64,000 nucleotides of DNA from a virus (Duplodnaviria; Heunggongvirae; Uroviricota; Caudoviricetes). The stretch is taken from the IMG/VR virus record IMGVR_UViG_3300021399_000096, one strand, 5' to 3'. Positions within the stretch are counted from its first letter, which is position 1. Each line of letters opens with the position of its first letter. Under the pieces are notes generated by a model. That model saw only the letters and a list, made by a program, of their open reading frames with translations. It was not told the DNA's origin and made no database searches. Below, one piece after another: positions 27,458-49,062 of the stretch. The position numbers and the translations under genes were made by a program.

Positions 27458-27514
27458 AACTTCTATTTTTTAGTTTGAAATAATTTTATTAATTTTGCAT
27501 CGTAATTAAAAATA
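27458..27514 (+). promoter_or_regulatory. Conserved promoter-like element, copy 1 of 6.
   Basis: aacttctattttttagtttgaaataattttattaattttgcatcgtaattaaaaataa lies about 10 nt upstream of the ATG at 27523. It contains a TAatTTTG element. Confidence 0.5.
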
Positions 27515-27522
27515 ATATAGTT

Positions 27523-28011
27523 ATGAGAACAACAGTTTATACACTTCTACCAAATGTTTTAAATAAAGAAGATTATGAAGAAATATATTTAAATAATGAA
27601 TATATTTATTTAGATATACGATTCGGATATATTAGAAAATTTAAATTAGAGTCAGATGATTCTAAACTTCGGTGTGTTGGAATTTTTGAAGAAAATAAAA
27701 TAGAATATTTTATTTTCAAAAAAGAAAATGATTCTAATTTATTGTTATGCAAAAATGATGGTATTCTTGAAAATGGTGATAAAATTATATGTTTGTCAAC
27801 AGGTTTTGAAAAAGGTGATTATGTTGCAAATGCACGTTTGGCAGGAATTGTAAAATTAACTATTATGGGCGAATCTTATTTAGAATATGCAGTAAACACT
27901 GCAAATCTATCGCCAGAATGGGAAACTGTTCATACAGATCATTGTTATCGTCTTGCAACAGAAGATGAAATAAAAGCAATTAATGAATTTAAAGAAGTTT
28001 TTAGCAAATAA
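27523..28011 (+). CDS. Hypothetical protein.
   Basis: Intact ORF immediately downstream of the conserved promoter element. Confidence 0.4.
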   Translation: MRTTVYTLLPNVLNKEDYEEIYLNNEYIYLDIRFGYIRKFKLESDDSKLRCVGIFEENKIEYFIFKKENDSNLLLCKNDGILENGDKIICLSTGFEKGDYVANARLAGIVKLTIMGESYLEYAVNTANLSPEWETVHTDHCYRLATEDEIKAINEFKEVFSK

Positions 28012-28022
28012 TTTATAGTTAT

Positions 28023-28460
28023 ATGGCACAACTAATTCAAAGAGACAGTGATGGAAAGAATCTTGCATTCCAATACAATGATGGAGGCAGATCACAGTAT
28101 TTTAAAGCACAAAAAGTCGGTGATTGTGTAACTCGCGCATTTGCAATTGCATCTGGTAAAGATTATAAAGAAGTATATAATCTTATATTCAAGACTGCAA
28201 AAGAAACACCACGCAATGGCGTCAAACGGACTATTTGTAAAAAAATTGCAAAACAACTCGGCGGTACATGGCATCCATTAATGGGTATTGGAACCGGTTG
28301 TAAAGCACACCTTCGTGTTAATGAAGTTCCTATGAAAGGAAAAATCGTATGTAGTGTCAGTAAGCACTTGACCGCGGTTATTGATGGTGTTATTAATGAT
28401 ACATATGATTGTGGCCGTGATGGTGAGCGTTGTGTTTACGGATATTGGGAATTCAAATAA
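28023..28460 (+). CDS. Hypothetical protein.
   Basis: Intact ORF. Confidence 0.4.
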   Translation: MAQLIQRDSDGKNLAFQYNDGGRSQYFKAQKVGDCVTRAFAIASGKDYKEVYNLIFKTAKETPRNGVKRTICKKIAKQLGGTWHPLMGIGTGCKAHLRVNEVPMKGKIVCSVSKHLTAVIDGVINDTYDCGRDGERCVYGYWEFK

Positions 28461-28508
28461 TTAGAAACTTTTTTGAATTTTGAAATAAAATTATAAACAA
28501 TAAAATTC

Positions 28509-28853
28509 ATGAAAACAATTGAAACCACATCTGCACAAGAAATCGCAGAATATTTGGAATATTTATATAATATAGCACGTGATAAAGCTTTTGAAAATAA
28601 TCATGATTATAGTAAAATATATAATGATACTGCATGGGAAAAATTATATCATAAAGTATTTTCAGATGAAATATCTCGAGTTATATGCAAAAGATTTCCT
28701 AATTTTGACTGGTATGATCCAGACACTTCATATTATGAAGATGTGAATGCATTTATTGAAGCATTTAAAAAATATGCAAAAAATATTAACAATGAAAATG
28801 ATGGGGAATTATTTCCAAGTATAAATACATATTTTGAAAATAAAAATATTTAA
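28509..28853 (+). CDS. Hypothetical protein.
   Basis: Intact ORF. Confidence 0.4.
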   Translation: MKTIETTSAQEIAEYLEYLYNIARDKAFENNHDYSKIYNDTAWEKLYHKVFSDEISRVICKRFPNFDWYDPDTSYYEDVNAFIEAFKKYAKNINNENDGELFPSINTYFENKNI

Positions 28854-28856
28854 AAC

Positions 28857-29624
28857 ATGAAAAGTCAAGTATTAAGTGAAAAAGGCATCAAAAGATTTAA
28901 TCTTGAAAATGCTAAACAATCAATTGAAAAAGCTAAAGAGGCTGTTCCGGTTAAGGAATGGACTAGTTTTGATGATTATTTTAAAGATGATTTTGAAGAT
29001 CGTCATAATAATAAAAAATGGTATGAAAAGATAAAAGATTTTTTTGTATTCAGTATTGGTTGGAATGTAAGAGATTGGTGGATTGATACAAAATGGTATT
29101 TTAGTAATTTGAAACGTTTTCAACCAATGATTAAATCATGGCGTTCATGGAGTTATGAATACCAATTGGATTTATTTGTATTTGGACTTAAACAACTTGC
29201 AAATACAATTGAATATTATGGTTATGAAGAAGAAACATCTCGTAATAAAAAAATAGCAGCAATTAAAGAGTTAATTGCCGAAATTAAGCGAGATTATGAA
29301 TTAGAAGTAGATGAGCGTTTTCCTCGAGATACATATCTTGAAAAAATCATAAAATATTCAGATGGTTCAGTATCATTCAATTATAAAGATGATGAAACCG
29401 TTGCAAAAGCTAAAGAACGTCATGCTAATGCATTAAAGAAAGCACGTAAAGCTCATTATGATAAAATATTTAAATTAATTCTCGGGCAAGATAATGATAA
29501 ACTTGGCCAAATGGTTAAAGAAAAATATGAATCATTATCTGAAGAGGAAAAGAAGAACTTTAGTTCTTATGATGCACAGGTAGAATTATTTGATGGATCT
29601 GGAATTGAAGGTTGGTGGGACTAA
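28857..29624 (+). CDS. Hypothetical protein.
   Basis: Intact ORF. Confidence 0.4.
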   Translation: MKSQVLSEKGIKRFNLENAKQSIEKAKEAVPVKEWTSFDDYFKDDFEDRHNNKKWYEKIKDFFVFSIGWNVRDWWIDTKWYFSNLKRFQPMIKSWRSWSYEYQLDLFVFGLKQLANTIEYYGYEEETSRNKKIAAIKELIAEIKRDYELEVDERFPRDTYLEKIIKYSDGSVSFNYKDDETVAKAKERHANALKKARKAHYDKIFKLILGQDNDKLGQMVKEKYESLSEEEKKNFSSYDAQVELFDGSGIEGWWD

Positions 29625-29691
29625 AAATAAATAAAAATTAAAATAAAAATATATGATTAGAACACTAGATTAGGCAGAAAAGGAATATTAT

Positions 29692-30105
29692 ATGACATAT
29701 TATAAATGTCATTGTGAATATTGTAATAGAGATTTTGTTGCAAGCATTGATGATATGCATGAGTCTGCTTTACAATTTGGAATGCCAAAAGTTGCAAATG
29801 ATGAATATGTATGGAAATGCCCAATATGTGGGCATCCAAATACCGGAAAAAATATTGATTTGGAACCATGTTATCAAAATGGTAAAACTAATAAAGTATT
29901 TGAATTGACTGATAATGAAACTAAAGCAGCCATGGAATTTGAAAATGCACATTGTCATATTAAAGATCCAGAACAATGTAAAACATTTTTATCTGCAGCG
30001 AAACAGCAATTTACATATGAAATTACTCTCGGAGGATTAGGACATTGCATAAGTATTAAATGCAATGAATGCGGAGAAACAAAAGATATTACAAATAATA
30101 ATTAA
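29692..30105 (+). CDS. Zinc-finger protein with three CxxC pairs. A possible alternative start at 29653 crosses a TAG.
   Basis: CHCEYCN, CPICGHPN and CNECGE are present. Confidence 0.4.
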   Translation: MTYYKCHCEYCNRDFVASIDDMHESALQFGMPKVANDEYVWKCPICGHPNTGKNIDLEPCYQNGKTNKVFELTDNETKAAMEFENAHCHIKDPEQCKTFLSAAKQQFTYEITLGGLGHCISIKCNECGETKDITNNN

Positions 30106-30132
30106 TTATAAATTTTAAAATTTTAAAAATTT

Positions 30133-30918
30133 ATGGGAAAATCCAAATTCAAAGTTGGCGATAAAGTTCGCTATAAAGGTAAAATATACACAATCGGTTG
30201 TGTAAAATATGATAATGGTGATAAACGAAATGTATATACACTTAAAGGGTTCCCAAATATATATTTCATTTATTCATACCAACTAGAGAAAGTAGATAAT
30301 TTTATACCTAAATCTAATAATGGAACTGTTAATTCTACTGTAACTTTGGAGTTTGATAAAACTACATTAAATACTATTGATGCTACAAATAAATTTAAAA
30401 ATTGTGCAAACAAAGTTATGGTAGATGGAGTAGTTATTAAAAATCGATATGGTGATGTAGATGAAAATACACGGGCATTTAAACTTACATTGGAAGAAGC
30501 ACAAGAAATGTATAATGCTGGTGGAAAACTTCGTGAATTTGCTCTTAGAGTTTTTACCGAAGATGAATTAAAGCCAAAATATCCAAAAACATGGGATGAT
30601 TACTGCGATAATTTTTATCCATATGAAAAGCATATGCATTATATTCCAAAATTTGCACATGGTTTTGATGGGGATGATGCAGATGCATTTATTGCATTTG
30701 GACGTTTAATTAGGTTACGTAAAGCATGGATTCGTGATTGGAAGCCTGTTTGGAATAATGTTGAAGTATACTGGTGTATTGGTTATCGGCTCAACAAAAT
30801 TAATATTATGCAGTATTCTTCAATATCACAACCATTATCTTTTCCAACAAAAGAAATGGCAGAGAATTTTATGAATTGTTTTAAAGATTTGTTAGAAAAA
30901 GCAAAAACATTAATTTAA
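30133..30918 (+). CDS. Hypothetical protein.
   Basis: Intact ORF. Confidence 0.4.
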   Translation: MGKSKFKVGDKVRYKGKIYTIGCVKYDNGDKRNVYTLKGFPNIYFIYSYQLEKVDNFIPKSNNGTVNSTVTLEFDKTTLNTIDATNKFKNCANKVMVDGVVIKNRYGDVDENTRAFKLTLEEAQEMYNAGGKLREFALRVFTEDELKPKYPKTWDDYCDNFYPYEKHMHYIPKFAHGFDGDDADAFIAFGRLIRLRKAWIRDWKPVWNNVEVYWCIGYRLNKINIMQYSSISQPLSFPTKEMAENFMNCFKDLLEKAKTLI

Positions 30919-30920
30919 TT

Positions 30921-31583
30921 ATGGAAAATAAGATTAAAGTTTTAGTAGTAGTTGATGCACAGAATGATTTTATTACTGGTACATTAGCAAATAAAGAGGC
31001 TCAACAGGCTGTTCCAAATATTGTTGACAAAATTTTATCATTTGATGGCGATGCAATTTATCTAACAATGGACACTCATTATTTTGATTATCTTAATACA
31101 TCTGAAGGTAAAAAACTTCCGGTTGAACATTGTATGGTCAATAGTGAAGGGTGGCGAATTGAAGAATCTATTTATCAAGCAGTCTTAGTAAAAGCTAAAC
31201 AAGGATGTGAAATTAAATATATTCGTAAAAATACATTTGGTTCTGTTGATCCAGTTTATATTGAAGATGGTGAAATTGCATCAACTCTTAAAGACGCCGT
31301 TTTAAATTTTGAAAAAGACCGAACATTTCAACATATTAAAAACAATGGATTTATTAATCATATTATTAAAAATAATGGGCATATTAATTATATTCCAATG
31401 GAAATTGAAATGTGTGGATTCTGTACAGATATTTGTGTAGTTTCTAATGCACTTATTCTTAAAGCATATACATATAATTTTGCAGAGATTACAGTGGATA
31501 GCAAATGTTGTGCTGGAGTTACTCCAGAAAAACATGAAGCTGCACTTGAAGTAATGAAATCATGTCAAATTAATATTATTTAA
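30921..31583 (+). CDS. pncA: Isochorismatase-family hydrolase, probably nicotinamidase (PncA).
   Basis: The N-terminus VLVVVDAQNDFITGTLAN matches the nicotinamidase VDxQNDF motif. A conserved Cys lies in CGFCTDICV. Confidence 0.6.
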   Translation: MENKIKVLVVVDAQNDFITGTLANKEAQQAVPNIVDKILSFDGDAIYLTMDTHYFDYLNTSEGKKLPVEHCMVNSEGWRIEESIYQAVLVKAKQGCEIKYIRKNTFGSVDPVYIEDGEIASTLKDAVLNFEKDRTFQHIKNNGFINHIIKNNGHINYIPMEIEMCGFCTDICVVSNALILKAYTYNFAEITVDSKCCAGVTPEKHEAALEVMKSCQINII

Positions 31584-31606
31584 AAACAATAAAATTTATT
31601 TTAATT

Positions 31607-32431
31607 ATGAAGAAAATTTTTTATTTTTTCAGTATTGCAGTATTTGCAATATTTACTTTGTCTTCATGTCATTCAGTAGAGGTTAATGCTGATGAGGAAG
31701 CTGTACTTGTTATGCAACCCTGGTTTTTTGGCCATGGCGGTGTAGATAAATCACCTGTTAGTACTGGTCTGGAATGGTGTGCAGTAACTACATATGGTGT
31801 TCCTTTTAAAATTGTTCCAGTACAATATGATGAAACATTTGATGATATTTTTTCAAATGATAATACTCCTTTGGATTTTAGTACCTATATTGTTATTCAG
31901 GTCGAGAAAGGTAAAACACCAATTCTATTACAAAATTATGGAAGCGATTGGTATAAAAATAATATTCAACAGGTTTATCGAAATAAAGTAAGGGATTGTG
32001 TTTCATTGTATAGCCCATTCGATTTGATTTCTAATCGTGAAGTAAATGCAAAAATTGACTCTATTGTATTAGAATATATGCGCAAATATGTCGAGTATAA
32101 ATCACAAGATGCTGATATGCCAATTAGAATTATTTCTGTCACAACAGGAAAAGCTAGTCCTAATGAGGAACAAAAGAAAGAAATGAATCTTACCGCGGCT
32201 GCTATTCAGAAAACTAAAACTCAAGAACGTTTAAAAGAAATGGAAACTGTTCGAGAATCAGCGGAAAAACAACGTGCAAAAGCTGATAAAGCGTATATGC
32301 GTGAAATGAATTTGTCTCCGGATCAATATATTCAATTACGTGCATGGTCTATTATCGAACAAAAGCAAGGCGCAAATATTGATGTATTGTTTGATGGTTC
32401 TTCACAACATATGTGGAATATTAGACGATAA
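31607..32431 (+). CDS. Lipoprotein with an SPFH/band-7-like region and a C-terminal coiled coil.
   Basis: Signal peptide plus lipobox FTLSSC. The C-terminal part is rich in charged heptad repeats. Confidence 0.45.
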   Translation: MKKIFYFFSIAVFAIFTLSSCHSVEVNADEEAVLVMQPWFFGHGGVDKSPVSTGLEWCAVTTYGVPFKIVPVQYDETFDDIFSNDNTPLDFSTYIVIQVEKGKTPILLQNYGSDWYKNNIQQVYRNKVRDCVSLYSPFDLISNREVNAKIDSIVLEYMRKYVEYKSQDADMPIRIISVTTGKASPNEEQKKEMNLTAAAIQKTKTQERLKEMETVRESAEKQRAKADKAYMREMNLSPDQYIQLRAWSIIEQKQGANIDVLFDGSSQHMWNIRR

Positions 32432-32454
32432 TGAAATAATTAATAGATAATAAA

Positions 32455-32484
32455 ACACTACCTAAAATTAGGTAGTGTTTTTTG
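32455..32484 (+). terminator. Rho-independent terminator.
   Basis: Stem acactacct / aggtagtgt followed by tttttt. Confidence 0.65.
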
Positions 32485-32494
32485 ATAATTTATT

Positions 32495-32552
32495 AACTTC
32501 TATTTTTTAATTTGAATAAAAAGTATTAATTTTGCATTGTAATTAAAAATAA
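32495..32552 (+). promoter_or_regulatory. Conserved promoter-like element, copy 2 of 6.
   Basis: aacttctattttttaatttgaataaaaagtattaattttgcattgtaattaaaaataa lies upstream of the ATG at 32561. Confidence 0.5.
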
Positions 32553-32560
32553 TATCAACT

Positions 32561-33169
32561 ATGGCAACAATTAAAACATTCGGAGAACAAGAAGTTTTCA
32601 CTACAAAAGAACTTAAAAAACTTCAAACAACTGAAGAAACCCGTAAGTATGTAATTCCATTGGAAATTAATATTTATGGAAATATTCTTCTTCATCATTA
32701 TTGGCCAACTGGAATGTTTAGAACGGTTAATGCTAAATATTTGCATGGCAATGTTAAATTTCATGATTTGAAATTGTATGATGAAGATAATAATAGTAAT
32801 GATACAATTACTATCAAATGTGGAAATTGCTTGCAAGAGATGCCATTGGTATTTGACCTTCAAATGACCAATGATAGCGCAAATATATTTAGTAATATTC
32901 TTTATAATATTGCGCGTTTTACCAAAACCTCTCATTATCCTGCAATCGGTATCGTAGAAGTTCCTGTTGGTACAAAATATGTAGATGTAACTGGTGTAGA
33001 CGGTTGTATGATGATTGCCGACAGTGAAATTAAAATAACTAATATTATTTGCGGTTTTGGTAATGAACCTGATTATTATAAACATTTTGCATTTACTGGA
33101 TATGATCAGGAAAATGTAAAAAAATTGCCTAAAGTTGTAAAGCTTCCATTAAATCACAATATGTATTAA
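32561..33169 (+). CDS. Hypothetical protein.
   Basis: Intact ORF. The antisense track ORF 32555-33085 is rejected. Confidence 0.4.
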   Translation: MATIKTFGEQEVFTTKELKKLQTTEETRKYVIPLEINIYGNILLHHYWPTGMFRTVNAKYLHGNVKFHDLKLYDEDNNSNDTITIKCGNCLQEMPLVFDLQMTNDSANIFSNILYNIARFTKTSHYPAIGIVEVPVGTKYVDVTGVDGCMMIADSEIKITNIICGFGNEPDYYKHFAFTGYDQENVKKLPKVVKLPLNHNMY

Positions 33170-33188
33170 ATTCAAAAATGTTATTATT

Positions 33189-42399: not shown

Positions 42400-44388
42400 A
42401 TGGATAACAATATTGAAAAATATCAAAGTAAAGAATTAGTTACAAGAGACGCGCAGATTGCAAATGCTCTTGAAACTCATCCAAAAGACTGGCAGAAGGA
42501 TATTCAGCCTGGCAATTATATTATTGATATGTCTTGGCATGATCCGCGTTGTTATCGTATTGTATCTATTGAACCAGAAAAAGACATCAAATTAGAATTT
42601 GAAAATGGTGAACGTAAAGAAATTGAATTAGATACATATCACCTTAATGTAAAGGGTGTAGGATTTGATCCATTTATAGATAAAGAATATGAAGTTGGTT
42701 CTGGAGGTTATAATCCTGAAAGAACCGAAGTTAGAGCATTGTCAATTAATGGCACAGATTATGGAAGAAATTATTTGGTTTTTAAAAATAAAGAGGAATT
42801 AGTTGCATATGTAAATCGAGGTATGGATGCAATTAATGGTAAAGATGATGAGTTTTTACAAACAGATAATATAAGTGATGATGACACCAACGAGGAAAGT
42901 ACAGCGCTTGTTAGTATGTCTGCATCAAAACAAACATATTTAAATGCACAAAATACTACACTTGCTCTTAAAGAAGAAATGGATCGAAAGCTCGCTATTG
43001 TTAAAATGTGTATTGCAGAACAACGTGAAAAAGTTGAAGCAATACAACGTAAATATAGAGATGCAATAATGGTTGTTGAACGTAAGTTGACACGTATTCG
43101 CAGGGTTCTTGGTCAGCTTGAATTGTATACAGGTGTCAATGAAGATGTTATTCAAATTCAAGAAGGTACGCCTGCGCCGATTGATGAACCTATTCAATTC
43201 TTCCAAGAGGTTCTTTATATGGATGAAGAGGTTGGTGATTGGAAAGATGGCGGTCTTGATTTTACAAAAATTGAGCAATTTGACGAATGGCTTCTTAGAA
43301 ATAACCACCTTGATTTATTTGTATCTAAGAAAGGTGTTCGCGTATTCCGTGTTCGCAGAAATGGAAAACAAGGCGGTGAAATTAAATATGGACATCATTA
43401 TGTTTATAATCCATATTTAATAAATGAATTAGATGAGAATGATGTAAAAACATATATTATTGTTAGAAACGGCGATAACGTATATCGAATTTGGGCAGAT
43501 TTAATTATCCATCCATATTTGTTTCCAAAGCAAGATGAGCTTCAAAAACTTGTAGATGAATTGGAGAAGGAAGGTATACACTATATAAGAAAAAATAAAC
43601 AAGAACAAATTGAAGATTTTATAGACAGATATAAATTTAATTTCTGTTTACTTCAGGGTTTGCTTGATCATTCAGATGTTTTGGCTCCGCATAATCCAGT
43701 TAACCTATTCAAAGAAGGATTAGAATCTCCATATGTTGAATTTGTGTATGATGCCGAATATAAACGTGTTAGCGATGGACATCCTGATTATTGGCATTTT
43801 GTAACAGAAATTAATAAAGACATTAAAGTTGGTTCTCGTATATTATTTTTACAAAATTATGTAATGGGTGTTCAAGATCGTTTTGATGAAAGATATTATT
43901 CTTGGAACCGTGATAAAGATGACACATGGGGTCTTCCGAATGTTCCAGACACCGGTTTATATACGATAGAGAAAAATTCGCATGGTGATTTTGTAATTAA
44001 ATACATGCCAGATAAAACATGGCATTATGATCCAGATAGAAAAAACCGTATATCATTTAAGGTTTATACTGATGCGCGTGAAGTTCTTAATTATGATGCA
44101 TTAGATATTGAAACAGTAGAATATTACCTTAATAATAGAATTAATCGTGCAGATTATCTAAGCATTATGCCAATGTTGGAAAATGTTCATAAACAATTAT
44201 TAGAAGAAATGAAACAAGAGGAATCTTTTATACTATTATTAAAGGGACAAGTTCCTAATGTAAGTGACGAGCTTATTAAAGAAACCATTAAATGGTGGAA
44301 ACTTAAAAATAAGGTTAAACGTCCTATTACATCTAATGATGCATTGGCATATAAACAAATTTTAAACAAACTTCAAAAATTCAATTAA
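42400..44388 (+). CDS. Large hypothetical protein of 662 aa.
   Basis: Intact ORF immediately after the conserved element. Its central coiled-coil segment is visible. Confidence 0.45.
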   Translation: MDNNIEKYQSKELVTRDAQIANALETHPKDWQKDIQPGNYIIDMSWHDPRCYRIVSIEPEKDIKLEFENGERKEIELDTYHLNVKGVGFDPFIDKEYEVGSGGYNPERTEVRALSINGTDYGRNYLVFKNKEELVAYVNRGMDAINGKDDEFLQTDNISDDDTNEESTALVSMSASKQTYLNAQNTTLALKEEMDRKLAIVKMCIAEQREKVEAIQRKYRDAIMVVERKLTRIRRVLGQLELYTGVNEDVIQIQEGTPAPIDEPIQFFQEVLYMDEEVGDWKDGGLDFTKIEQFDEWLLRNNHLDLFVSKKGVRVFRVRRNGKQGGEIKYGHHYVYNPYLINELDENDVKTYIIVRNGDNVYRIWADLIIHPYLFPKQDELQKLVDELEKEGIHYIRKNKQEQIEDFIDRYKFNFCLLQGLLDHSDVLAPHNPVNLFKEGLESPYVEFVYDAEYKRVSDGHPDYWHFVTEINKDIKVGSRILFLQNYVMGVQDRFDERYYSWNRDKDDTWGLPNVPDTGLYTIEKNSHGDFVIKYMPDKTWHYDPDRKNRISFKVYTDAREVLNYDALDIETVEYYLNNRINRADYLSIMPMLENVHKQLLEEMKQEESFILLLKGQVPNVSDELIKETIKWWKLKNKVKRPITSNDALAYKQILNKLQKFN

Positions 44389-44542
44389 TATGAAGGTAGA
44401 ACAAATTGATGCAGAGTTTGCATTTAAAGAAATTCTTAATGAAATAATAAACAGTAAATTTGATATGTCTATTAATTTGAATCAAAAATTTAAAGAAAAA
44501 TTAAATTATTTTGGTACACAACGTTCAAATGATGATTAAACC

Positions 44543-44803
44543 ATGACAAAAGAAGAATTTAAAACGCTGAAAAGGGGAGATATTATCTCTAATAAATATG
44601 AAACTCATAAAGGTTCTATTTGTGGTTATGATTATTTAGTTGATTCTGATTATGTATGGGATGAAGTTAAACAGGATGGATATATTTTATATAGAATCAT
44701 TTTGGAAATTAATGGGAAAATTGAATATGGAAATCAAAATCAATTATATGAATCCGGAATAGAAAAATGTTTGAATATGCATATTAAAGTACATGGATTA
44801 TGA
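44543..44803 (+). CDS. Hypothetical protein.
   Basis: Intact ORF. Confidence 0.35.
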   Translation: MTKEEFKTLKRGDIISNKYETHKGSICGYDYLVDSDYVWDEVKQDGYILYRIILEINGKIEYGNQNQLYESGIEKCLNMHIKVHGL

Positions 44804-44919
44804 AAAAGGTAAAATTTGAATTTGAATTCCCTGTGTGGGTATTGGCAATTCTATATATTTTAGGTTGCGGGGCAATTGGAGCAATATTAGGTGTAATTGT
44901 GGGTTTATTTTTGGGTTAA
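44800..44919 (+). CDS. Small hydrophobic peptide of 39 aa, possibly a membrane protein.
   Basis: ATGA start/stop overlap with the upstream gene. The sequence is MKKVKFEFEFPVWVLAILYILGCGAIGAILGVIVGLFLG. Confidence 0.3.
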   Translation: MKKVKFEFEFPVWVLAILYILGCGAIGAILGVIVGLFLG

Positions 44920-44936
44920 AATAATTTAATAAAGTT

Positions 44937-45158
44937 ATGAAATATATTGTTGAATATCTTGAACAAGAAATGAATATTCATCCTATCGGTGATGTTACAT
45001 TTATACCATGTGCAGAGGGTGAAGAAGTTGGTTATACTATTGTTATTGGTGGAAAAACTACAACTCTTAATGTTTGGTGGACTGATTATGCTACATGGCT
45101 TGAAAAAAAGTTAAAAGAAGAAAAAAGCTATATGAAAATTACAGGGCCTAATAAATAA
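44937..45158 (+). CDS. Hypothetical protein.
   Basis: Intact ORF. Confidence 0.35.
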   Translation: MKYIVEYLEQEMNIHPIGDVTFIPCAEGEEVGYTIVIGGKTTTLNVWWTDYATWLEKKLKEEKSYMKITGPNK

Positions 45159-45163
45159 AAATT

Positions 45164-45745
45164 ATGAAGCATAAAATTACATTAAAAAATACATTAGCGC
45201 ATTTTAAGAAAATTTGTGTACATAAATTCTGGGTAGCATATTATTGCTTTAAGGCTGGATTGTATTGGCAAGGTATTACTCACGATTTGTCTAAATTTTC
45301 ATGGGTTGAATTTTGGGAATCTGTAAGATATTATCAAGGAACAAGTTCGCCAATCAATGTATGTAAGGCAGATAAAGGGTATTCATTAGCATGGCAGCAT
45401 CATAAAGGCCGTAATCCTCATCATTATGAATATTGGACAGATAGATATGATGAAGGCACGGTTTGCATAAAAATGCCCTATAAATATGCAGTTGAGATGG
45501 TTTGCGATTATATTGGTGCGGCAAAAGCATATCTTGGTAACAATTTTACATATAAAGGCGAATTTGAGTGGTGGGAAAACAAAAAGAAAATTGCAAAAAT
45601 GCATAAAGATACCGCACACTTTTTGACAGTGGTATTTAATGATTTAGCTGAAAAGGAAATATTAGGATTAGATCCTGAATCATACATTAATAAAAAATGT
45701 ATTAAAGAAATATGGGATTTTGCTGAGCTCAGAATACGTAAATAA
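45164..45745 (+). CDS. Hypothetical protein.
   Basis: Intact ORF. Confidence 0.4.
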   Translation: MKHKITLKNTLAHFKKICVHKFWVAYYCFKAGLYWQGITHDLSKFSWVEFWESVRYYQGTSSPINVCKADKGYSLAWQHHKGRNPHHYEYWTDRYDEGTVCIKMPYKYAVEMVCDYIGAAKAYLGNNFTYKGEFEWWENKKKIAKMHKDTAHFLTVVFNDLAEKEILGLDPESYINKKCIKEIWDFAELRIRK

Positions 45746-45894
45746 TAAAATTAAAATACAATAATTAATTATGGAATCTCAGTATTGTAAAATATGCAAC
45801 TTATTTAATAACTGCAAAAAATCAAAAAATTGTAGTTGTGAATTATTTGAAACTAATGTTAGTTTAAAACCTGAAAGAAAACAAAGAAATTATT

Positions 45895-45945
45895 AACTTC
45901 CATTTTTATTATTTTTACGTTGTAATTAAAAAATATTAACAATTT
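45895..45945 (+). promoter_or_regulatory. Conserved promoter-like element, copy 5 of 6 (degenerate).
   Basis: aacttccatttttattatttttacgttgtaattaaaaaata lies upstream of the ATG at 45961. Confidence 0.35.
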
Positions 45946-45960
45946 AAATAGTTTAAAATT

Positions 45961-46191
45961 ATGAATTGGAAAAACCCAGCAATAGATGAACCAGAACCCA
46001 ATAAAGATTATTTAGTTCGTATGTGGTTTAGAGATGGGTCTTATACTGATGTTGTTGAGACTTGGAGGCCGGCCTATCAAATTTGGTGTAATCAAGATAA
46101 AAGAGATACATGTGAACGTACGCGATATTGTGAAATACCTGAATTTGATGGTGAACCAGTAAGTACTTGGGCAATTAATTTTGAATATTAA
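45961..46191 (+). CDS. Hypothetical protein.
   Basis: Intact ORF. Confidence 0.35.
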   Translation: MNWKNPAIDEPEPNKDYLVRMWFRDGSYTDVVETWRPAYQIWCNQDKRDTCERTRYCEIPEFDGEPVSTWAINFEY

Positions 46192-46301
46192 GAAACTAAA
46201 AAAGAGAATAAGAATTATGAAAGAAGAACAAAAGTGGTTAAAAACATCAGAGCAATTACCAAAAAAAGGTTAATGGACGAATACGATCAAATGCAGTATT
46301 A

Positions 46302-46868
46302 GTGTCAATTACAGGAAATGATTGGACAGTTGCAGAATATCATTTTGGTGATAAACGTTGGATAAACTTGCTCGGTGAAAGAGAAACTATTGAACCAAAA
46401 TATTGGCAAGAAGTTAATTTACCTGAAGAAATTTTAAGTATGCAAAATAAAAATCAAGAATTTGTAAATACTGTTTGGGATAAAACAGTTGAGGATATAA
46501 GTAAAAATCCTGACATAAAGAATTGGTTTGATGGATTACATAGTGAAGACAAAGCTGCATTAGAAGCAATTACAAAAGGTATTGCAATGACAACAAGACA
46601 ACCCGAGTTGTTACCTATTGATATTGAAAACTGTCCGAAAGCTGATATAAAATATTTTGATTGTAAAATTATGGAAGATAATTTTATATTAACAATAGAA
46701 TGGAAAAATGCAGATGTTTATTTTCCAGAATTAGAAAATGAACCCATTATTTATTGTACTGCAAATAAAAAGATAGGAACTCTTAAATCAGTAGAAAATC
46801 ATTGGAGTTGGCTTAAAGAAAAATACAATATCAAATGGTGGTGTTATCAATGGAAAATAGTACCATAA
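46302..46868 (+). CDS. Hypothetical protein with a GTG start.
   Basis: Intact ORF. A short 18-codon uORF lies upstream. Confidence 0.35.
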   Translation: MSITGNDWTVAEYHFGDKRWINLLGERETIEPKYWQEVNLPEEILSMQNKNQEFVNTVWDKTVEDISKNPDIKNWFDGLHSEDKAALEAITKGIAMTTRQPELLPIDIENCPKADIKYFDCKIMEDNFILTIEWKNADVYFPELENEPIIYCTANKKIGTLKSVENHWSWLKEKYNIKWWCYQWKIVP

Positions 46869-46896
46869 TAATAATTATAAAAAGAGAAAATAAGAT

Positions 46897-47172
46897 ATGA
46901 CATTAACTGATTATAATAATTTATATTTGGAATTTTGTGAATTCGAAACTAAACCAATGTCTCTTGTATATGAAAAATTATCAACATTGACAGAAGGCAA
47001 AGATTATGATTTTGATTATGAAAAAGAACATTTATTTTGTGAACCAGAATATCCAGAAGATACAAAAGTAATTATTCATAGTTATAAATTTTATCTTGAT
47101 GATTATGATAAGCCTGCTTGCATGAGGTTTTGGTATGGCAATAATACTAAAATTTTAGGAGTTGTCGATTAA
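46897..47172 (+). CDS. Hypothetical protein.
   Basis: Intact ORF. Confidence 0.35.
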   Translation: MTLTDYNNLYLEFCEFETKPMSLVYEKLSTLTEGKDYDFDYEKEHLFCEPEYPEDTKVIIHSYKFYLDDYDKPACMRFWYGNNTKILGVVD

Positions 47173-47289
47173 TGAATGTAATAAACCGATTGAAACAAAA
47201 TATAAATAATAATTATAATAATAAATTGCGATAAAAATATCGTTGGTGGCGGAGAAAATAAAAATTAACAATTAAAAACATTTAAAATT

Positions 47290-48972
47290 ATGAGAAATTT
47301 ACTATCACAATCTAAAGACATGTCACATGAATATTGTGCCACTGTTGTTCAATTGGGTGAATTGACTCCAATTGAAGAAACTGATTTTCTCGCCACTGTA
47401 ATGGTTGAAGGTCGAGAAATTGTAGTTCGTAAAGATCGCGTTAAAGAGGGCGATATTATGATTTATGTATCTAATGAGTGTCAGCTTGATCAACTTTTTT
47501 TGCATTATAACAATGAGTTCCAGGATGAAGAGCTTAATGCAAATTATTCTGAAGTCCAAAAACATGTTGAGCAAATGAAATCTGAAGGTGCATCTGAAGA
47601 TGATATTAAATCATATATTGCAGCTAATCGTGGATACTTTGATAAGAAATGCCGTGTTCGTATGAAGCGAATTAAAGGTGTTATGTCAATGGGTTATCTT
47701 ATTTCACCTGATCAAATGAGCACATATAATGAACAATTTCTTATAGAGCATTTTGATTGGGCTCAACATATCGGTGAGGATTTTGATACTATTGATGGAG
47801 AACTATTTGTAAAGGCATATGTTCCTGAAGTTAAAGAAGAAAAACGTAGAAATCGAGTTGGACGATATGAAAAACAAATTAAAAAATATGATCGTATGAT
47901 TCCTGGACAATTTGCATTCCACTATGATACTCAACAACTTCAACGTGAGATTGGAAGATTGCAGCCTGAAACTTCAGTTGCAATTTCAGTAAAGCTTCAT
48001 GGAACATCAGCAATTTTTGGTAATGTAAAAGTTAATAAGCCGAAATATGGAGGGTTATATTCAAAACTATTTGTATATTTGCCAAAGTTCTTGCAATTTA
48101 CTACTGAAGATTATGATGTAATTTATAGTTCTCGTAGTGTAATTAAAAATCAAAATATGCTTGCAACTGTATATCAATACATTTATACTTGGTATAATCA
48201 TATTACACGTACGCTGCATTCATTGTTTAAGAAAAACAAACGTGTATTGAATGAAGACGGAACACCTAAAACTTTCTGGGATAAAATTAAAGATTTGTTT
48301 AAAAATCCTATTCAATCTAAAAAAGACGGTTTTTATGGAGTTGATGTATGGAAGCAATACTATGATATCCTTAAAGGTATTATTCCACAAGGAATGACTT
48401 TATATGGTGAAATTGTAGGCTATCTTCCTGACAGTACTTCTGGTATTCAATCTCTTGGAGGTAAGGTTTACGATTATGGTTGCAAACCAGGTGAGAATAA
48501 ACTTATGATTTATCGTATCAAACGAGTAATGGAAGATGGACAAGTATTTGAGTTCAACGTTCAAGATGTTCATGATTATACTGAGCGATCACTTATTTTT
48601 ACTCTTAAAGAGCTTGATAATATGCATGGAACTCATTATGCAGATCAAATTATTCCTATTCCGATTTTGTATAATGGAGATATGAAGAATTTGTATCCTG
48701 AAATTGATATTAAAAATCATTGGCATGAAAATATTTTGAATGCAATGAAATCCGATAAGAAATTCTGTATGGAAATGGATGAGCCATTGTGTAAAAACAA
48801 ACTTCCTCGCGAGGGCATTGTTCTTCGAATTAATGATGATCCAATGGCAGAGGCATTTAAACTTAAGTGCTTAAAGTTCCTCGGAAAAGAAGCAGAAGAT
48901 ATTGATAAAGGACGTTCTAATGATATTGAAATGCAAGAACGATACACGGACGATTCTTCTGAAGAAAATTAA
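47290..48972 (+). CDS. RNA ligase, T4 Rnl2-like nucleotidyltransferase domain, with an N-terminal extension of about 230 aa.
   Basis: SVKLHGTSAIFGN is motif I (KxHGT, as in Rnl2 KIHGTN). EGIVLRIND is motif IV (EGYVLK). AFKLKC is motif V (K-x-K). Confidence 0.6.
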   Translation: MRNLLSQSKDMSHEYCATVVQLGELTPIEETDFLATVMVEGREIVVRKDRVKEGDIMIYVSNECQLDQLFLHYNNEFQDEELNANYSEVQKHVEQMKSEGASEDDIKSYIAANRGYFDKKCRVRMKRIKGVMSMGYLISPDQMSTYNEQFLIEHFDWAQHIGEDFDTIDGELFVKAYVPEVKEEKRRNRVGRYEKQIKKYDRMIPGQFAFHYDTQQLQREIGRLQPETSVAISVKLHGTSAIFGNVKVNKPKYGGLYSKLFVYLPKFLQFTTEDYDVIYSSRSVIKNQNMLATVYQYIYTWYNHITRTLHSLFKKNKRVLNEDGTPKTFWDKIKDLFKNPIQSKKDGFYGVDVWKQYYDILKGIIPQGMTLYGEIVGYLPDSTSGIQSLGGKVYDYGCKPGENKLMIYRIKRVMEDGQVFEFNVQDVHDYTERSLIFTLKELDNMHGTHYADQIIPIPILYNGDMKNLYPEIDIKNHWHENILNAMKSDKKFCMEMDEPLCKNKLPREGIVLRINDDPMAEAFKLKCLKFLGKEAEDIDKGRSNDIEMQERYTDDSSEEN

Positions 48973-48975
48973 ATG

Positions 48976-49004
48976 AAGGGTGGGTAATTCCACCTTTTAT
49001 TTTT
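48976..49004 (+). terminator. Rho-independent terminator.
   Basis: Stem aagggtgg / ccaccttt with loop gtaatt, followed by tttatttttt. Confidence 0.55.
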
Positions 49005-49062
49005 AACTTCTATTTTTTAATTTAAGAAAAAAGTATTAATTTTGCATCGTAATTAAAAAAGA
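49005..49062 (+). promoter_or_regulatory. Conserved promoter-like element, copy 6 of 6.
   Basis: aacttctattttttaatttaagaaaaaagtattaattttgcatcgtaattaaaaaaga lies upstream of the ATG at 49090. Confidence 0.5.

What the first reader, a model, noticed from the sequence alone, without database searches (positions are those of the whole stretch)
27458..49062. Conserved ~55-nt promoter-like element repeated six times at 3-5 kb intervals
Six near-identical intergenic elements precede + strand genes at 27523, 32561, 37843, 42400, 45961 and 49090. The consensus is AACTTCTATTTTTTAATTTRAnAAAAAGTATTAATTTTGCATCGTAATTAAAAATA. Most sit directly after a rho-independent terminator hairpin and about 10-30 nt before an ATG. 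They therefore punctuate the genome into regularly spaced transcription units. The element contains TAATTTTG, which matches the Bacteroidetes sigma-A -7 consensus TAnnTTTG. The usual TTTG at -33 is not at canonical spacing, so it may be recognised by a phage-modified or phage-encoded factor. The first gene after three of the six copies is a tiny membrane protein.
Basis: seen in the sequence. Interest (0 to 1): 0.65.

Follow-up and report, generated by a model that had tools for sequence, protein, structure and literature searches.

The report
Megaphage early promoter–leader cassette
The repeated 58-base element is most likely the early-gene promoter plus short mRNA leader of a Lak-type gut/rumen megaphage; across the clade it sits in front of genes readable in the standard genetic code, while genes that use the stop codon TAG as a sense codon carry a different, T4-late-like motif.

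Summary
There are five near-identical + strand copies (starts 27458, 32495, 37773, 42333, 49005) and one degenerate copy (45895). Chance expectation is zero.

The window belongs to a relative of the Prevotella Lak megaphages: TAG is a sense codon, the major capsid protein is 62% identical to Lak, and RF2 is encoded.

The element is clade-wide. I found about 100 unique copies in IMG/VR jumbo-phage contigs and 51 homologous copies in the complete Lak-A1 genome.

Its anatomy matches the Bacteroidota primary-sigma promoter:
- an invariant TAHHTTTG -7 box;
- a purine at the predicted +1;
- A/T tracts near -18 and -28, and a T-run at -33;
- an extra invariant AACTTC box at about -42;
- a 21-23 nt unstructured A-rich leader before the ATG.

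It also precedes tRNA clusters. Genes directly behind it almost never contain in-frame TAG (1 of 68 in this clade, 1 of 42 in Lak-A1). Genes behind an AATAAATAT motif mostly do (31 of 38; 76 of 105).

Comparison with a 95%-identical relative shows recombination inside one copy. Bacterial contigs of about 40% GC carry positions 1-44 ahead of defence genes.

Best reading: a host-RNA-polymerase early promoter cassette, the Bacteroidota counterpart of the T4 PeSL. No transcript data were available.

The parts
27458..27515 (+). Element copy 1. AACTTC box at 27458-27463, -7 box TAATTTTG at 27490-27497, predicted +1 G at 27502, leader running to the ATG at 27523.
   Evidence: nhmmer E = 2e-13; coordinates; orthologous copies in L036 and L025.
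27423..27446 (+). Terminator-like hairpin plus T-run immediately upstream of copy 1.
   Evidence: 10-bp stem with 4 G-C pairs, followed by TTTTATTTTT.
32495..32552 (+). Element copy 2. -7 box TAATTTTG at 32527-32534, predicted +1 G at 32539, ATG at 32561.
32452..32481 (.). Palindromic terminator-like hairpin upstream of copy 2, followed by a T-run on the + strand.
   Evidence: 13-bp stem; sequence seen.
37773..37830 (+). Element copy 3. -7 box TATTTTTG at 37805-37812, predicted +1 A at 37817, divergent leader, ATG at 37843. It heads the unit that ends with the RF2 gene.
   Evidence: nhmmer E = 8.5e-11.
37719..37744 (+). Hairpin (GGGAAGATG...CATTTTCCC) followed by a T-run, upstream of copy 3.
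   Evidence: Sequence; coordinates.
42333..42390 (+). Element copy 4, with the AGCTTC variant of the upstream box. -7 box TAAATTTG at 42365-42372, predicted +1 G at 42377, ATG at 42400. It overlaps the RF2 stop codon and has no hairpin upstream.
   Evidence: Lak-A1 has the same arrangement, with RF2 followed 63 nt later by an element.
45895..45935 (+). Degenerate copy. The upstream box is retained (AACTTCC), about 16 nt are deleted, the -7 box is damaged (TATTTTTA) and the leader GTAATTAAAAAA is retained. Probably weak or dead.
   Evidence: nhmmer E = 1; the identical sequence is present in the relative UViG_3300001487_000119.
49005..49062 (+). Element copy 5. -7 box TAATTTTG at 49037-49044, predicted +1 G at 49049, longer leader, ATG at 49090. 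It is a chimera of the two copies that flank a 254-nt cassette in the relative.
   Evidence: nhmmer E = 5e-16; recombination evidence.
48979..48994 (+). Hairpin GGTGGGTAATTCCACC followed by a T-run, upstream of copy 5.
27523..51499 (+). Block of about 40 + strand genes served by the elements. It is essentially free of TAG codons, whether as stop or as sense. It includes a CCA-adding enzyme, NAPRTase, an isochorismatase-family protein, RF2 (41227-42333), an RNA ligase and many genes with no database match.
   Evidence: 1 TAG in 7332 codons inside the block against 36 in 11888 outside it, p = 5.6e-7; Pfam and PHROG hits.

Best explanation
Each copy is a compact early-expression cassette of a Lak-type megaphage that infects Prevotella or other Bacteroidales. 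I number positions from the first A of AACTTC.

Proposed parts:
- Positions 1-44 are a promoter read by the unmodified host RNA polymerase with its primary sigma factor.
- The TAHHTTTG box at positions 33-40 is the -7 element.
- The A-tract at positions 24-28 and the AATTT at positions 15-19 are the A/T-rich helical-phase contacts near -18 and -28.
- The T-run at positions 9-14 occupies the -33 position.
- The invariant AACTTC at about -44 to -39 acts as an upstream, UP-like contact. This last assignment is inferred.

Transcription is predicted to start at the purine at position 45. That gives window coordinates 27502, 32539, 37817, 42377 and 49049.

Positions 45-58 form an unstructured, A-rich leader with no Shine-Dalgarno sequence. 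In the commonest layout the leader is 21-23 nt long and places an A-run 9-15 nt before the ATG, which is where Bacteroidota ribosomes favour adenines.

A terminator hairpin often sits just upstream and insulates the units from one another. The cassette switches on genes that can be translated in the host's standard code before the phage reassigns TAG. These include RF2 and tRNA clusters. Genes that contain TAG as a sense codon use a separate, T4-late-like motif (AATAAATAT).

Because the copies are near-identical direct repeats, they also serve as crossover points that add or remove small gene cassettes.

Shown by sequence analysis: the anatomy, the conservation, the partition by codon usage and one recombination chimera. 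Inferred: that the host polymerase recognises the element, the exact start site, the timing of expression and the role of the AACTTC box.
For: 1. Real and clade-wide.
- 110 profile hits, 101 of them unique, in the window plus IMG/VR tiles from 88-381 kb contigs.
- 51 homologous copies in the complete Lak-A1 genome.
- The window's major capsid protein is 62% identical to Lak over 99% of its length.

2. Promoter anatomy (rule from PMC6847099).
- TA and TTTG are present in 92 of 92 aligned copies (these bases were required by the retrieval patterns and the alignment filter, so this is expected by construction). The two middle positions, which the searches left free, vary with no G in 92 copies.
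- The spacing from the upstream box to the -7 box is fixed at 32 in 92 of 95 copies.
- The base 5 nt after the G of the -7 box is a purine in 90 of 92 copies.
- Information content falls to background before position -5 and after position 58.

3. The two halves co-occur. A search with the downstream half alone returned 22 sites, of which 21 carry the upstream box with at most one mismatch.

4. Orientation and distance.
- 95 of 101 copies have a co-oriented ORF within 400 nt.
- The distance from the -7 box to the ATG has a mode of 26-28 nt.
- The exceptions precede tRNA or non-coding RNA clusters, which argues for a transcriptional role.

5. No RNA structure (z-scores about 0; the leader is less structured than shuffles) and no Rfam match.

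6. Partition by genetic code.
- This clade: 1 of 68 element-preceded genes has in-frame TAG, against 31 of 38 genes preceded by AATAAATAT. Odds ratio 297, p = 6.5e-19.
- Lak-A1 genome-wide: 1 of 42 against 76 of 105. Odds ratio 107, p = 2.8e-16.
- This fits the early standard-code / late recoded model of Borges et al. (10.1101/2021.08.26.457843).

7. Use in host-type DNA. Positions 1-44 occur in ~40% GC contigs from Bacteroidales MAGs and metagenomes, ahead of a GmrSD-like gene and a PD-(D/E)XK nuclease gene. Neighbouring promoters in the same contig share the T-run, the A-rich spacer and TAnnTTTGCA.

8. Terminator-like hairpins are enriched upstream: 16 of 100 against 11 of 506 controls, p = 3e-7.

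9. Recombination. Copy 49005 is a chimera of the two copies that flank a 254-nt cassette in a 95%-identical relative.
Against: - No transcript 5' ends, expression timing or in vitro transcription data were available. Promoter activity and the +1 position are inferred from consensus rules established in Flavobacterium johnsoniae, not in Prevotella.
- The canonical -33 TTTG is absent; the sequence there is invariantly TTTT.
- The AACTTC box is far more conserved than a typical UP element, and Lak-A1 lacks it although it keeps the rest of the element. That pattern would also fit a lineage-specific protein partner.
- Lak phages are reported to encode sigma factors (PMC6784885).
- Most copies were retrieved with patterns that required parts of the element, so conservation of those parts is partly an effect of how the copies were found.
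- The bacterial copies all lie in defence-island-like contexts and could derive from phage.
- The suppressor tRNA-CUA genes of Lak-A1 are not next to an element.
Confidence: 0.72

Rival explanations
1. It is a phage-factor-dependent promoter, of the 'middle' or sigma-appropriation type. Host polymerase still reads the -7 box. The invariant AACTTC box, together with T rather than G at -32, would be the binding site of a phage-encoded or virion-delivered activator, a sigma-remodelling protein or a phage sigma factor. T4 MotA/AsiA works this way at middle promoters.
For: - C3 and C6 of the upstream box are 97-100% conserved and its spacing to the -7 box is fixed.
- The canonical -33 TTTG is never present.
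- Lak-A1 keeps the T-run, the -7 box and the leader but has a different sequence in place of AACTTC. This is what co-evolution with a lineage-specific factor would produce.
- Lak genomes are reported to encode sigma factors (PMC6784885).
Against: - The downstream genes are the most TAG-free in the genome, as expected for the first genes expressed.
- Positions 1-44, including AACTTC, occur in ~40% GC contigs binned as Bacteroidales or from metagenomes, ahead of bacterial defence-type genes.
- The -33 box is weak in Bacteroidota generally (PMC6847099).
- No sigma factor or transcription-factor domain was found in the window. The window is only a small part of the genome, so this is weak evidence.
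Confidence: 0.17
2. The primary role is as a recombination module. On this view the repeats are maintained mainly as portable homology blocks, like the T4 PeSL, that shuffle gene cassettes. Their near-identity would come from gene conversion rather than from constraints of transcription.
For: - The chimeric copy at 49005 and the cassette insertion/deletion bounded by two copies in the relative.
- Near-identity over 58 nt, which exceeds what polymerase contacts usually need.
- The genes downstream are mostly short and have no database match.
- The PeSL precedent in T4-type phages (PMC2839356, PMC4122927).
Against: - Variation within the element is position-specific and follows promoter rules. 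The middle of the -7 box is free but never G, and +1 is a purine. Simple homogenisation would not produce this.
- Orientation and distance to the ATG are fixed.
- The architecture is conserved out to Lak-A1, where capsid identity is only 62%.
- Only one clear recombination event was seen among the six sites. The other two insertions/deletions do not use element homology.
- The two roles are compatible. This rival only fails as the sole explanation.
Confidence: 0.06
3. It is an RNA-level signal. On this view the conserved part that matters is the transcribed leader (positions 45-58, GTAATTAAAAATA). It would serve as a binding or cleavage site for a phage translational repressor or RNase, like T4 RegA or RegB acting on early mRNAs, or as a translation enhancer. 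The upstream part would be incidental.
For: - The leader is conserved between this clade and Lak-A1 (TATTGTAAATAATAAA) but is missing from the bacterial copies.
- In the commonest layout its A-run lies 9-15 nt before the ATG, where adenines promote initiation in Bacteroidota (PMC6847099).
- The leader is unstructured.
Against: - The leader keeps its position relative to the -7 box, not relative to the ATG. The distance to the ATG ranges from 5 to more than 100 nt.
- The same element precedes tRNA and non-coding RNA clusters that have no start codon.
- The upstream 44 nt are at least as conserved as the leader.
- This reading is plausible as an added function of positions 45-58. It does not explain the whole element.
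Confidence: 0.04
4. It is a miniature mobile element or a chance low-complexity repeat in an AT-rich genome.
For: It is a short AT-rich repeat present in many copies. TAnnTTTG alone occurs 124 times in the window.
Against: - Zero matches are expected in shuffles.
- There are no terminal inverted repeats or duplicated flanks, and conservation ends sharply at both edges.
- The element is strictly intergenic and co-oriented with genes.
- Orthologous copies sit at syntenic positions in relatives.
Confidence: 0.01

Closest known systems
PeSL (promoter-early stem-loop) regulatory cassettes of T4-type phages (Arbiol et al. 2010, PMC2839356; Comeau et al. 2014, PMC4122927)
   Same: - Tens of copies per genome in a phage with a gp23-type capsid protein.
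- The layout runs: upstream stop codon, A/T-rich stretch, host primary-sigma consensus promoter, translation start signals, ATG.
- Often combined with a terminator stem-loop.
- Mostly sits ahead of short genes with no database match.
- Copies act as crossover points for cassette gain and loss between close relatives.
   Different: - The promoter is of the Bacteroidota -33/-7 type rather than the -35/-10 type.
- The leader lacks a Shine-Dalgarno sequence and is A-rich.
- The stem-loop lies upstream of the promoter rather than inside it, and is present in only 16% (strict criteria) to about 40% (loose criteria) of copies.
- There is an extra invariant AACTTC box at about -42.
- The copies are much more alike than PeSLs are.
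- The class is tied to standard-code genes in a TAG-recoded phage.
- Mini-circles were not tested.
Bacteroidota primary-sigma (sigma-A-Bfr) promoters, -33 TTTG / -7 TAnnTTTG (Bayley et al. 2000; Chen et al. 2007; refined to TAHHTTTG by Baez et al. 2019, PMC6847099)
   Same: - A -7 box with invariant TA and TTTG and no G in the two middle positions.
- A purine 5 nt downstream of the box.
- A/T-rich tracts about one and two helical turns upstream.
- A short A-rich leader with no Shine-Dalgarno sequence.
   Different: - TTTT instead of TTTG at -33.
- An additional conserved box at -44 to -39.
- Near-identity among copies over 58 nt, including about 14 transcribed bases.
T4 early promoters (own knowledge: Miller et al. 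2003 review of the T4 genome; Wilkens and Rueger). They have an extended consensus with an A-rich region near -42 and are stimulated by the virion-delivered ADP-ribosyltransferase Alt.
   Same: - A phage-specific, unusually uniform and extended version of the host consensus.
- Conserved sequence near -42.
- Used for the first wave of genes.
   Different: The host phylum and sigma type differ. No Alt homologue was looked for here. The comparison rests on recalled knowledge and is a lead, not a test.
T4 middle promoters (MotA box plus AsiA sigma appropriation; own knowledge)
   Same: The host's downstream promoter element is kept, while the upstream element is replaced by a conserved phage-specific box.
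   Different: The conserved box lies at about -42, not -30. The T-run at -33 is kept. The element occurs in bacterial DNA and ahead of the most TAG-free genes. MotA and AsiA homologues were not searched for.

Membership tests
Bacteroidota primary-sigma (-33/-7) promoter | -7 box TAnnTTTG (TAHHTTTG: no G at the two middle positions) | tested here: met
   TA and TTTG are present in 92 of 92 aligned copies (G replaced by A in 5). The middle positions are A/T and T/C/A, with no G. The rule is from PMC6847099.
Bacteroidota primary-sigma (-33/-7) promoter | -33 TTTG about 19-20 nt upstream of the -7 box | tested here: not met
   The position is occupied by an invariant TTTT(TT) run. The TTTG/TTTA at positions 17-20 lies only 12 nt from the -7 box and is G in only 25% of copies. 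The -33 box is weak in F. johnsoniae promoters, so its absence is not disqualifying.
Bacteroidota primary-sigma (-33/-7) promoter | A/T-rich motifs near -18 and -28 | tested here: met
   An A-tract at positions 24-28 (-21 to -17) and A(A/G)TTT at positions 15-19 (-30 to -26) are conserved.
Bacteroidota primary-sigma (-33/-7) promoter | Transcription starts about 5 nt after the G of the -7 box, by host holoenzyme | not testable with these tools
   Only indirect evidence is available: position 45 is a purine in 90 of 92 copies. No transcript data were available.
PeSL-type cassette of T4-like phages | Repeated host-consensus early promoter ahead of short genes without database matches, in a T4-like phage | tested here: met
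   The capsid protein matches Pfam Gp23 (E = 4e-32) and a tail sheath is present. There are at least 13-21 copies per partial genome and 51 in Lak-A1. The first genes have a median length of 117 aa, and the six in this window have no Pfam or PHROG hit.
PeSL-type cassette of T4-like phages | A stem-loop terminator as an integral part of the cassette | tested here: inconclusive
   Present at 4 of the 6 copies in the window. Across the clade it is present at 16 of 100 copies by strict criteria, against 2% of controls, and at 41 of 101 with an upstream fold of -5 kcal/mol or better. It is enriched but not constant, and it lies upstream of the promoter rather than inside it.
PeSL-type cassette of T4-like phages | Recombination between copies creates cassette insertions/deletions between close relatives | tested here: met
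   One clear case. The relative has two copies that flank a 254-nt cassette, and the window has a single chimeric copy at 49005. Two other insertions/deletions nearby do not use element homology.
PeSL-type cassette of T4-like phages | Excised mini-circles | not testable with these tools
   This needs PCR or read-level evidence.
T4 middle-type (activator-dependent) promoter | A phage activator or co-activator that recognises the upstream box | not tested
   No MotA/AsiA-like or sigma domain was found among the window's proteins. The rest of the genome was not available.
Miniature transposable element | Terminal inverted repeats and target-site duplication; insertion without regard to gene orientation | tested here: not met
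   Conservation ends sharply with no inverted termini or duplicated flanks. All copies are intergenic and co-oriented with the downstream gene.
Structured cis-regulatory RNA | Conserved secondary structure, or a match to a known RNA family | tested here: not met
   Fold z-scores range from -0.25 to +1.35 for the element copies and the copy-1 leader; the copy-2 stretch gives -1.0 because of a hairpin in the coding sequence. There is no Rfam hit in the window.

The most novel reading that the evidence does not exclude
The most novel reading has two parts.

First, promoter class and genetic code together form a two-key timing system in Lak-type megaphages. The AACTTC / TAHHTTTG cassette turns on standard-code genes, including RF2 and tRNA clusters. 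A T4-late-like AATAAATAT promoter drives genes that also need TAG read as a sense codon.

Second, the invariant AACTTC box is the docking site of a factor delivered or made by the phage. Rumen Bacteroidales defence islands (cassettes carrying GmrSD/HEC-05 and PD-(D/E)XK/PDC-S26 genes) would then have captured this same promoter, so that their nucleases are induced by the infecting megaphage's own transcription machinery. Alternatively those islands could be satellites that listen for the helper phage.

The sequence-level partition in the first part is already shown here. The factor dependence and the infection-sensing defence promoters are speculation that the data do not exclude.
Probability: 0.1. 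Interest if true: 0.85.

Novelty: new member of a known kind. Interest (0 to 1): 0.55.

Why it matters
Lak megaphages are uncultured, so their gene-expression programme is unknown. The Lak genome papers, the stop-codon recoding preprint and a 2026 jumbo-phage review that I searched say nothing about Lak promoters.

This element gives a concrete early-promoter and leader consensus that can be searched for, with predicted start sites. Paired with the AATAAATAT motif, it splits the genome into standard-code and TAG-recoded gene sets with odds ratios above 100 in two lineages.

That turns the model of 'early genes in the host code, late genes in the recoded code' into something directly testable:
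- by mapping 5' ends in existing metatranscriptomes;
- with reporter assays in Bacteroides or Prevotella.

It also offers a rule for predicting the timing class of the hundreds of megaphage genes that have no database match.

The cassette is a candidate strong, compact expression part for Bacteroidales engineering. Its presence ahead of defence genes in host-type (~40% GC) contigs is a lead on exchange of regulatory DNA between phage and host.

Tried and rejected
- **Near-identity DNA search** of 20 kb of the window against GenBank phages found no match. Relatives had to be found through proteins and patterns.
- **tRNA scan** of the window found none.
- **Sigma-70 consensus scan** gave no more sites than shuffles (156 against 150), so E. 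coli-type promoters are irrelevant here.
- **Enrichment of TAnnTTTG alone** is not informative in this AT-rich DNA: 124 sites, only 17 of them intergenic.
The results had to be filtered again with the nhmmer profile.
- **The TTTG 12 nt upstream of the -7 box as a shifted -33 box**: rejected, because that position is G in only 25% of copies.
- **An ECF-sigma reading** (AAC as a -35 element): rejected, because nothing CGT-like lies 16-17 nt downstream. This was judged by reading the sequence.
- **RNA structure or a known RNA family**: none found.
- **A direct link to suppressor tRNA genes**: not found. tRNAs downstream of elements in relatives are Trp, Val, Phe, Cys, Leu and an intron-containing Arg. 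The tRNA-CUA genes of Lak-A1 lie 14-15 kb from the nearest element.
- **'Tiny membrane protein' as the usual first gene**: rejected. Only 9 of 91 first genes have a membrane-spanning-like segment.
- **Regular spacing**: rejected across the clade.
- **Literature searches** for a described Lak or megaphage promoter found nothing.

Full report

The 34-nt core of the reported consensus, allowing up to 3 mismatches, matches three sites. Dinucleotide-preserving shuffles give 0.00 expected matches. A regular-expression scan and an nhmmer profile built from the copies find five strong + strand copies, with E-values from 5e-16 to 9e-11. They start at 27458, 32495, 37773, 42333 and 49005. There is one weak copy at 45895 (E = 1) and nothing comparable elsewhere in the 64 kb on either strand.

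All copies are intergenic or overlap the stop codon of the gene upstream. Each lies 10-30 nt, measured from the end of the stated consensus, before an ATG on the same strand. Four of the six follow a terminator-like hairpin with a T-run: 27423-27446, 32452-32481, 37719-37744 and 48979-48994. Copy 42333 overlaps the stop codon of a release-factor gene.

The sixth copy has lost about 16 nt between the upstream box and the -7 box, and its -7 box is damaged. The same degenerate sequence is present in a close relative. Only two of the six first genes (37843 and 49090) are small membrane proteins.

**2. What genome is this?**

The window is 23-33% G+C. It contains many genes that only make sense if TAG is read as a sense codon. 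With TAG as sense, coding density rises from 0.879 to 0.922 and fragments fuse into long genes. One example is 3086-5020, with 12 in-frame TAGs. Others are the tail sheath gene 7170-10478 and the gp23-type major capsid gene 23173-25080.

The window encodes a class-I release factor with PCRF and RF-1 domains (41227-42333). Its capsid protein is 62% identical, over 99% of its length, to the capsid proteins of the Prevotella phages Lak-A, Lak-B and Lak-C. TAG recoding together with a phage RF2 is the published signature of Lak megaphages (PMC6784885 and PMC8346664; Borges et al. preprint). The window is therefore from a Lak-related megaphage whose host is expected to be Prevotella or another member of the Bacteroidales.

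**3. Distribution of the element**

- The exact 19-mer of the upstream half occurs 56 times in IMG/VR. Nearly all hits are in a handful of contigs of 88-381 kb, and 53 of the 56 carry the same downstream architecture.
- A search with only the downstream half returned 22 sites. Of these, 21 carry the upstream half with at most one mismatch. The two halves therefore form one unit.
- A profile search over the window plus all fetched tiles gives 110 hits, 101 of them unique. At least 21, 18, 13 and 10 copies lie in four large contigs, on both strands.
- In the complete Lak-A1 genome (541,664 bp), a lineage-specific profile finds 51 homologous copies. Their consensus is ATTTTTTTATTTRRAATAAAATRTG-TATCTTTG-TATTGTTAAT...ATG, and their strand follows the local direction of the genes.

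**4. Anatomy**

I number positions from the first A of AACTTC.

- Positions 1-19: A(A/G)CTTCTATTTTTTA(A/G)TTT.
- Positions 20-32: an A-rich spacer.
- Positions 33-40: TAnnTTTG. TA and TTTG are present in all 92 aligned copies. The middle positions are A/T and T/C/A and are never G.
- Positions 41-42: C (82%) and A (100%).
- Positions 43-58: YCGWAATTAAAAAAA.

Information content falls to background before position -5 and after position 58. The distance from position 1 to the -7 box is 32 in 92 of 95 copies.

Baez et al. 2019 aligned 241 Flavobacterium johnsoniae promoters (PMC6847099). They found the following:
- The invariant bases are T-12, A-11, T-8, T-7, T-6 and G-5.
- G is absent from the two middle positions.
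- The -33 motif is weak.
- A/T-rich motifs at -18 and -28 are more pronounced than the -33 motif.

Mapped onto the element, G40 is at -5. The predicted start is then position 45, which is a purine in 90 of 92 copies. The A-tract and the AATTT fall near -19 and -28, the T-run falls at -36 to -31, and AACTTC falls at -44 to -39.

The ATG most often lies 26-28 nt after G40. That gives a leader of 21-23 nt and puts the conserved A-run 9-15 nt before the ATG. Adenines at those positions favour initiation in this phylum, which lacks Shine-Dalgarno sequences.

The element and its leader have no more secondary structure than shuffled sequence. Nothing in the window matches Rfam.

Six copies have no ORF downstream. 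Four of them precede tRNA clusters or tRNA-like and intron-containing tRNA regions. In Lak-A1, elements head tRNA-Tyr, tRNA-Leu and the large cluster of about 20 tRNA genes. A signal that serves both protein-coding and RNA genes, and that keeps its position relative to the -7 box rather than the ATG, is a transcription signal.

**5. Link to the genetic code**

*Within the window.* The block served by the elements (27523-51499) has 1 TAG in 7332 codons. The rest of the window has 36 in 11888 (p = 5.6e-7).

*Across the window and the clade tiles.*

| Gene class | Genes | With in-frame TAG | TAG per 1000 codons |
|---|---|---|---|
| Directly preceded by the element | 68 | 1 | 0.09 |
| AATAAATAT / TAAATAAATA motif 15-65 nt upstream | 38 | 31 | 7.0 |
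| Neither | 553 | 133 | 3.1 |

Element-preceded against motif-preceded genes gives an odds ratio of 297 (p = 6.5e-19).

*Genome-wide in Lak-A1.*

| Gene class | Genes | With in-frame TAG | TAG per 1000 codons |
|---|---|---|---|
| Directly preceded by the element | 42 | 1 | 0.13 |
| AATAAATA / TATAAATA motif upstream | 105 | 76 | 11.1 |
| Neither | 414 | 138 | 7.5 |

Here the odds ratio is 107 (p = 2.8e-16). The result replicates in an independent, published, complete genome.

The second motif resembles the T4 late promoter TATAAATA (own knowledge). In the window it precedes the tail sheath gene and other TAG-containing genes.

In both lineages RF2 lies inside an element-headed unit and is followed at once by the next element. 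This is what the model of Borges et al. predicts: early genes readable in the host code, including the code-switch machinery, and late genes gated by recoded stops. The one exception is the suppressor tRNA-CUA genes of Lak-A1, which are not near an element.

**6. Who reads the promoter?**

Three points favour unmodified host polymerase:
- The fit to the phylum's promoter rules, described in section 4.
- The TAG-free status of the downstream genes.
- The occurrence of positions 1-44, without the phage leader, in DNA of about 40% G+C from rumen Bacteroidales genome bins (RUG552, RUG225) and from metagenome contigs.

In those bacterial contigs the sequence heads variable cassettes. These include a GmrSD-like nuclease (PADLOC HEC-05, E = 7e-133) and a PD-(D/E)XK nuclease (Pfam PDDEXK_4; PADLOC PDC-S26). 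Neighbouring promoters in the same bacterial contig share the T-run, the A-rich spacer and TAnnTTTGCA.

Four points argue the other way:
- The AACTTC box is invariant in this clade, yet a different sequence replaces it in Lak-A1, which keeps everything else.
- The -33 G is never present.
- Lak genomes are reported to encode sigma factors.
- The bacterial copies all sit in defence-island-like contexts and could be of phage origin.

I put host-polymerase early promoter at about 0.72 and a factor-dependent promoter at about 0.17.

**7. A second role in genome plasticity**

I compared the window with a 95%-identical relative, UViG_3300001487_000119.

- At the 49005 site the relative has two element copies that flank a 254-nt cassette encoding a 56-aa ORF. 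The window has a single copy. Its 5' part, with TAATTTTG, matches the relative's first copy. Its 3' leader, AAGATAGTATTAAC, matches the second. This is the product of a crossover inside the element.
- Two other differences nearby do not use element homology. One is a 2.2-kb insertion carrying a 717-aa gene, which duplicated the capsid-gene terminator. The other is a 537-nt deletion that starts in the leader of the degenerate copy.

The combination seen here is what Arbiol, Comeau and Krisch described as PeSLs in T4-type phages. That combination is a host-consensus early promoter, often paired with a terminator hairpin, placed ahead of short unknown genes, and used as a crossover point. Hairpins are enriched upstream of the elements, at 16 of 100 against 11 of 506 controls, but they are not constant.

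**8. Comparison and novelty**

The element works like a phage early promoter and like a PeSL. Its core meets the test for a Bacteroidota primary-sigma promoter on the -7 box and on the A/T tracts, but not on the -33 TTTG. That box is weak in the phylum anyway.

It differs from known examples in four ways:
- the AACTTC box near -42;
- the conserved transcribed leader;
- its uniformity over 58 nt;
- its tight association with the standard-code half of a recoded genome.

The Lak papers, the recoding preprint and a 2026 jumbo-phage review that I searched do not describe Lak promoters. I therefore file it as a new member of a known kind, a phage early promoter / PeSL-type cassette, and not as a new kind of system.

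**9. Limits**

- Everything about activity, start site and timing is inferred from sequence.
- Most clade copies were retrieved with patterns that required part of the element. This inflates the apparent conservation of those parts. The half-element search and the Lak-A1 whole-genome scan are the least biased checks.
- Gene calls were made with a simple greedy ORF caller with TAG read as sense.
- The late-motif class was defined by a short regular expression and will include some chance matches.

Noticed in passing
window 3086-5020, 5025-5798, 7170-10478, 12305-13234 (-), 13331-13666 (-), 22175-22903, 23173-25080, 51535-52695 (-), 54215-55246: TAG is used as a sense codon (a code-15-like recoding). 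Reading TAG as sense fuses fragments into long genes, including the tail sheath and the gp23-type capsid gene, and raises coding density from 0.879 to 0.922. Under the TAG-as-sense gene call every gene ends in TAA or TGA; a few standard-code ORFs end at TAG, and these fuse into longer genes when TAG is read through.
   Followed up: yes
window + 3050, + 7126, + 25225; - 52727, - 13701, - 13273, - 11083: A second repeated upstream motif, (C/T)T(A/T)AATAAATATA(T/A), lies 32-44 nt before the ATG of TAG-containing genes. It resembles the T4 late promoter TATAAATA and is a candidate late-promoter class. In the clade 31 of 38 such genes contain TAG, and in Lak-A1 76 of 105 do.
   Followed up: partly
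window 54215-62475: A complete shikimate pathway is encoded by the phage. It comprises a DAHP synthase fused to chorismate mutase, 3-dehydroquinate synthase, shikimate kinase, a type II dehydroquinase fused to EPSP synthase, chorismate synthase and shikimate dehydrogenase (Pfam). The word 'shikimate' does not occur in the two Lak papers, and a literature search found no report of a phage with the full pathway.
   Followed up: partly
window 41227-42333: A phage-encoded class-I release factor (PCRF and RF-1 domains), 48% identical to the release-factor homologue in Lak-A1 at 368082-369155, which the Lak papers describe as RF2. In both phages the gene is followed immediately by an early-type element.
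   Followed up: yes
window 25162-27416 (gene 25268-27421); hairpins 25130-25153 and 27423-27446: A 717-aa gene (PHROG homing-endonuclease-like, Pfam DUF7487) is inserted between the capsid-gene terminator and element copy 1. The 95%-identical relative lacks it. The terminator hairpin is duplicated on both sides of the insertion.
   Followed up: partly
L187 2832 and 4781; L240 4721; L263 2750 (-); L267-L272: Contigs of about 40% GC from Bacteroidales MAGs (RUG552, RUG225) and from metagenomes carry positions 1-44 of the element. It is preceded by a conserved GGCTAATTAGGGCGAATTGC...AAAAATT stretch and sits ahead of variable cassettes. These include a GmrSD-like nuclease (PADLOC HEC-05), a PD-(D/E)XK nuclease (PDC-S26) and unknown ORFs. 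The region looks like an array in a defence island.
   Followed up: partly
L031 4575-5800; L033 5600-6530; L018 7657-9634; L037 2413-3200: In relatives the element precedes non-coding stretches with tRNA-like 3' ends, an intron-containing tRNA-Arg(CCT) of about 157 nt, and ordinary tRNA clusters. One region of about 140 nt between two elements in L031 ends in a T-arm-like GGTTCGAATCC, but neither ARAGORN nor Rfam calls it a tRNA.
   Followed up: partly
window 10598-11044 (-), 12305-13234 (-), 13331-13666 (-), 51535-52695 (-): A paralogous family of proteins shares an N-terminus like M..(K/N)..LYE(S/N)IM(A/R)SVAKEVK.ALNE. Each gene is preceded by the late-type motif, and three of the four contain in-frame TAG.
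   Followed up: no
window 16537-20308: Two adjacent ORFs, 17199-18746 and 18779-20308; the second matches Pfam family-B DNA polymerase (the first was read by eye), suggesting a polymerase split in two. An HNH-endonuclease ORF (16537-17013) that contains TAG lies just upstream. The layout recalls the variable gene-43 locus of T4-type phages.
   Followed up: no
window 30921-31583, 33766-35223, 36520-37686, 47290-48972: The early block carries genes for NAD salvage and for RNA or tRNA repair: an isochorismatase-family protein, a CCA-adding tRNA nucleotidyltransferase with an HD domain, a nicotinate phosphoribosyltransferase and an RNA ligase.
   Followed up: no
window 45945-46481 compared with L140: The 95%-identical relative lacks 537 nt. 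The missing stretch starts in the leader of the degenerate copy 45895 and ends inside gene 46440-46868. It removes the 76-aa gene 45961-46191.
   Followed up: partly
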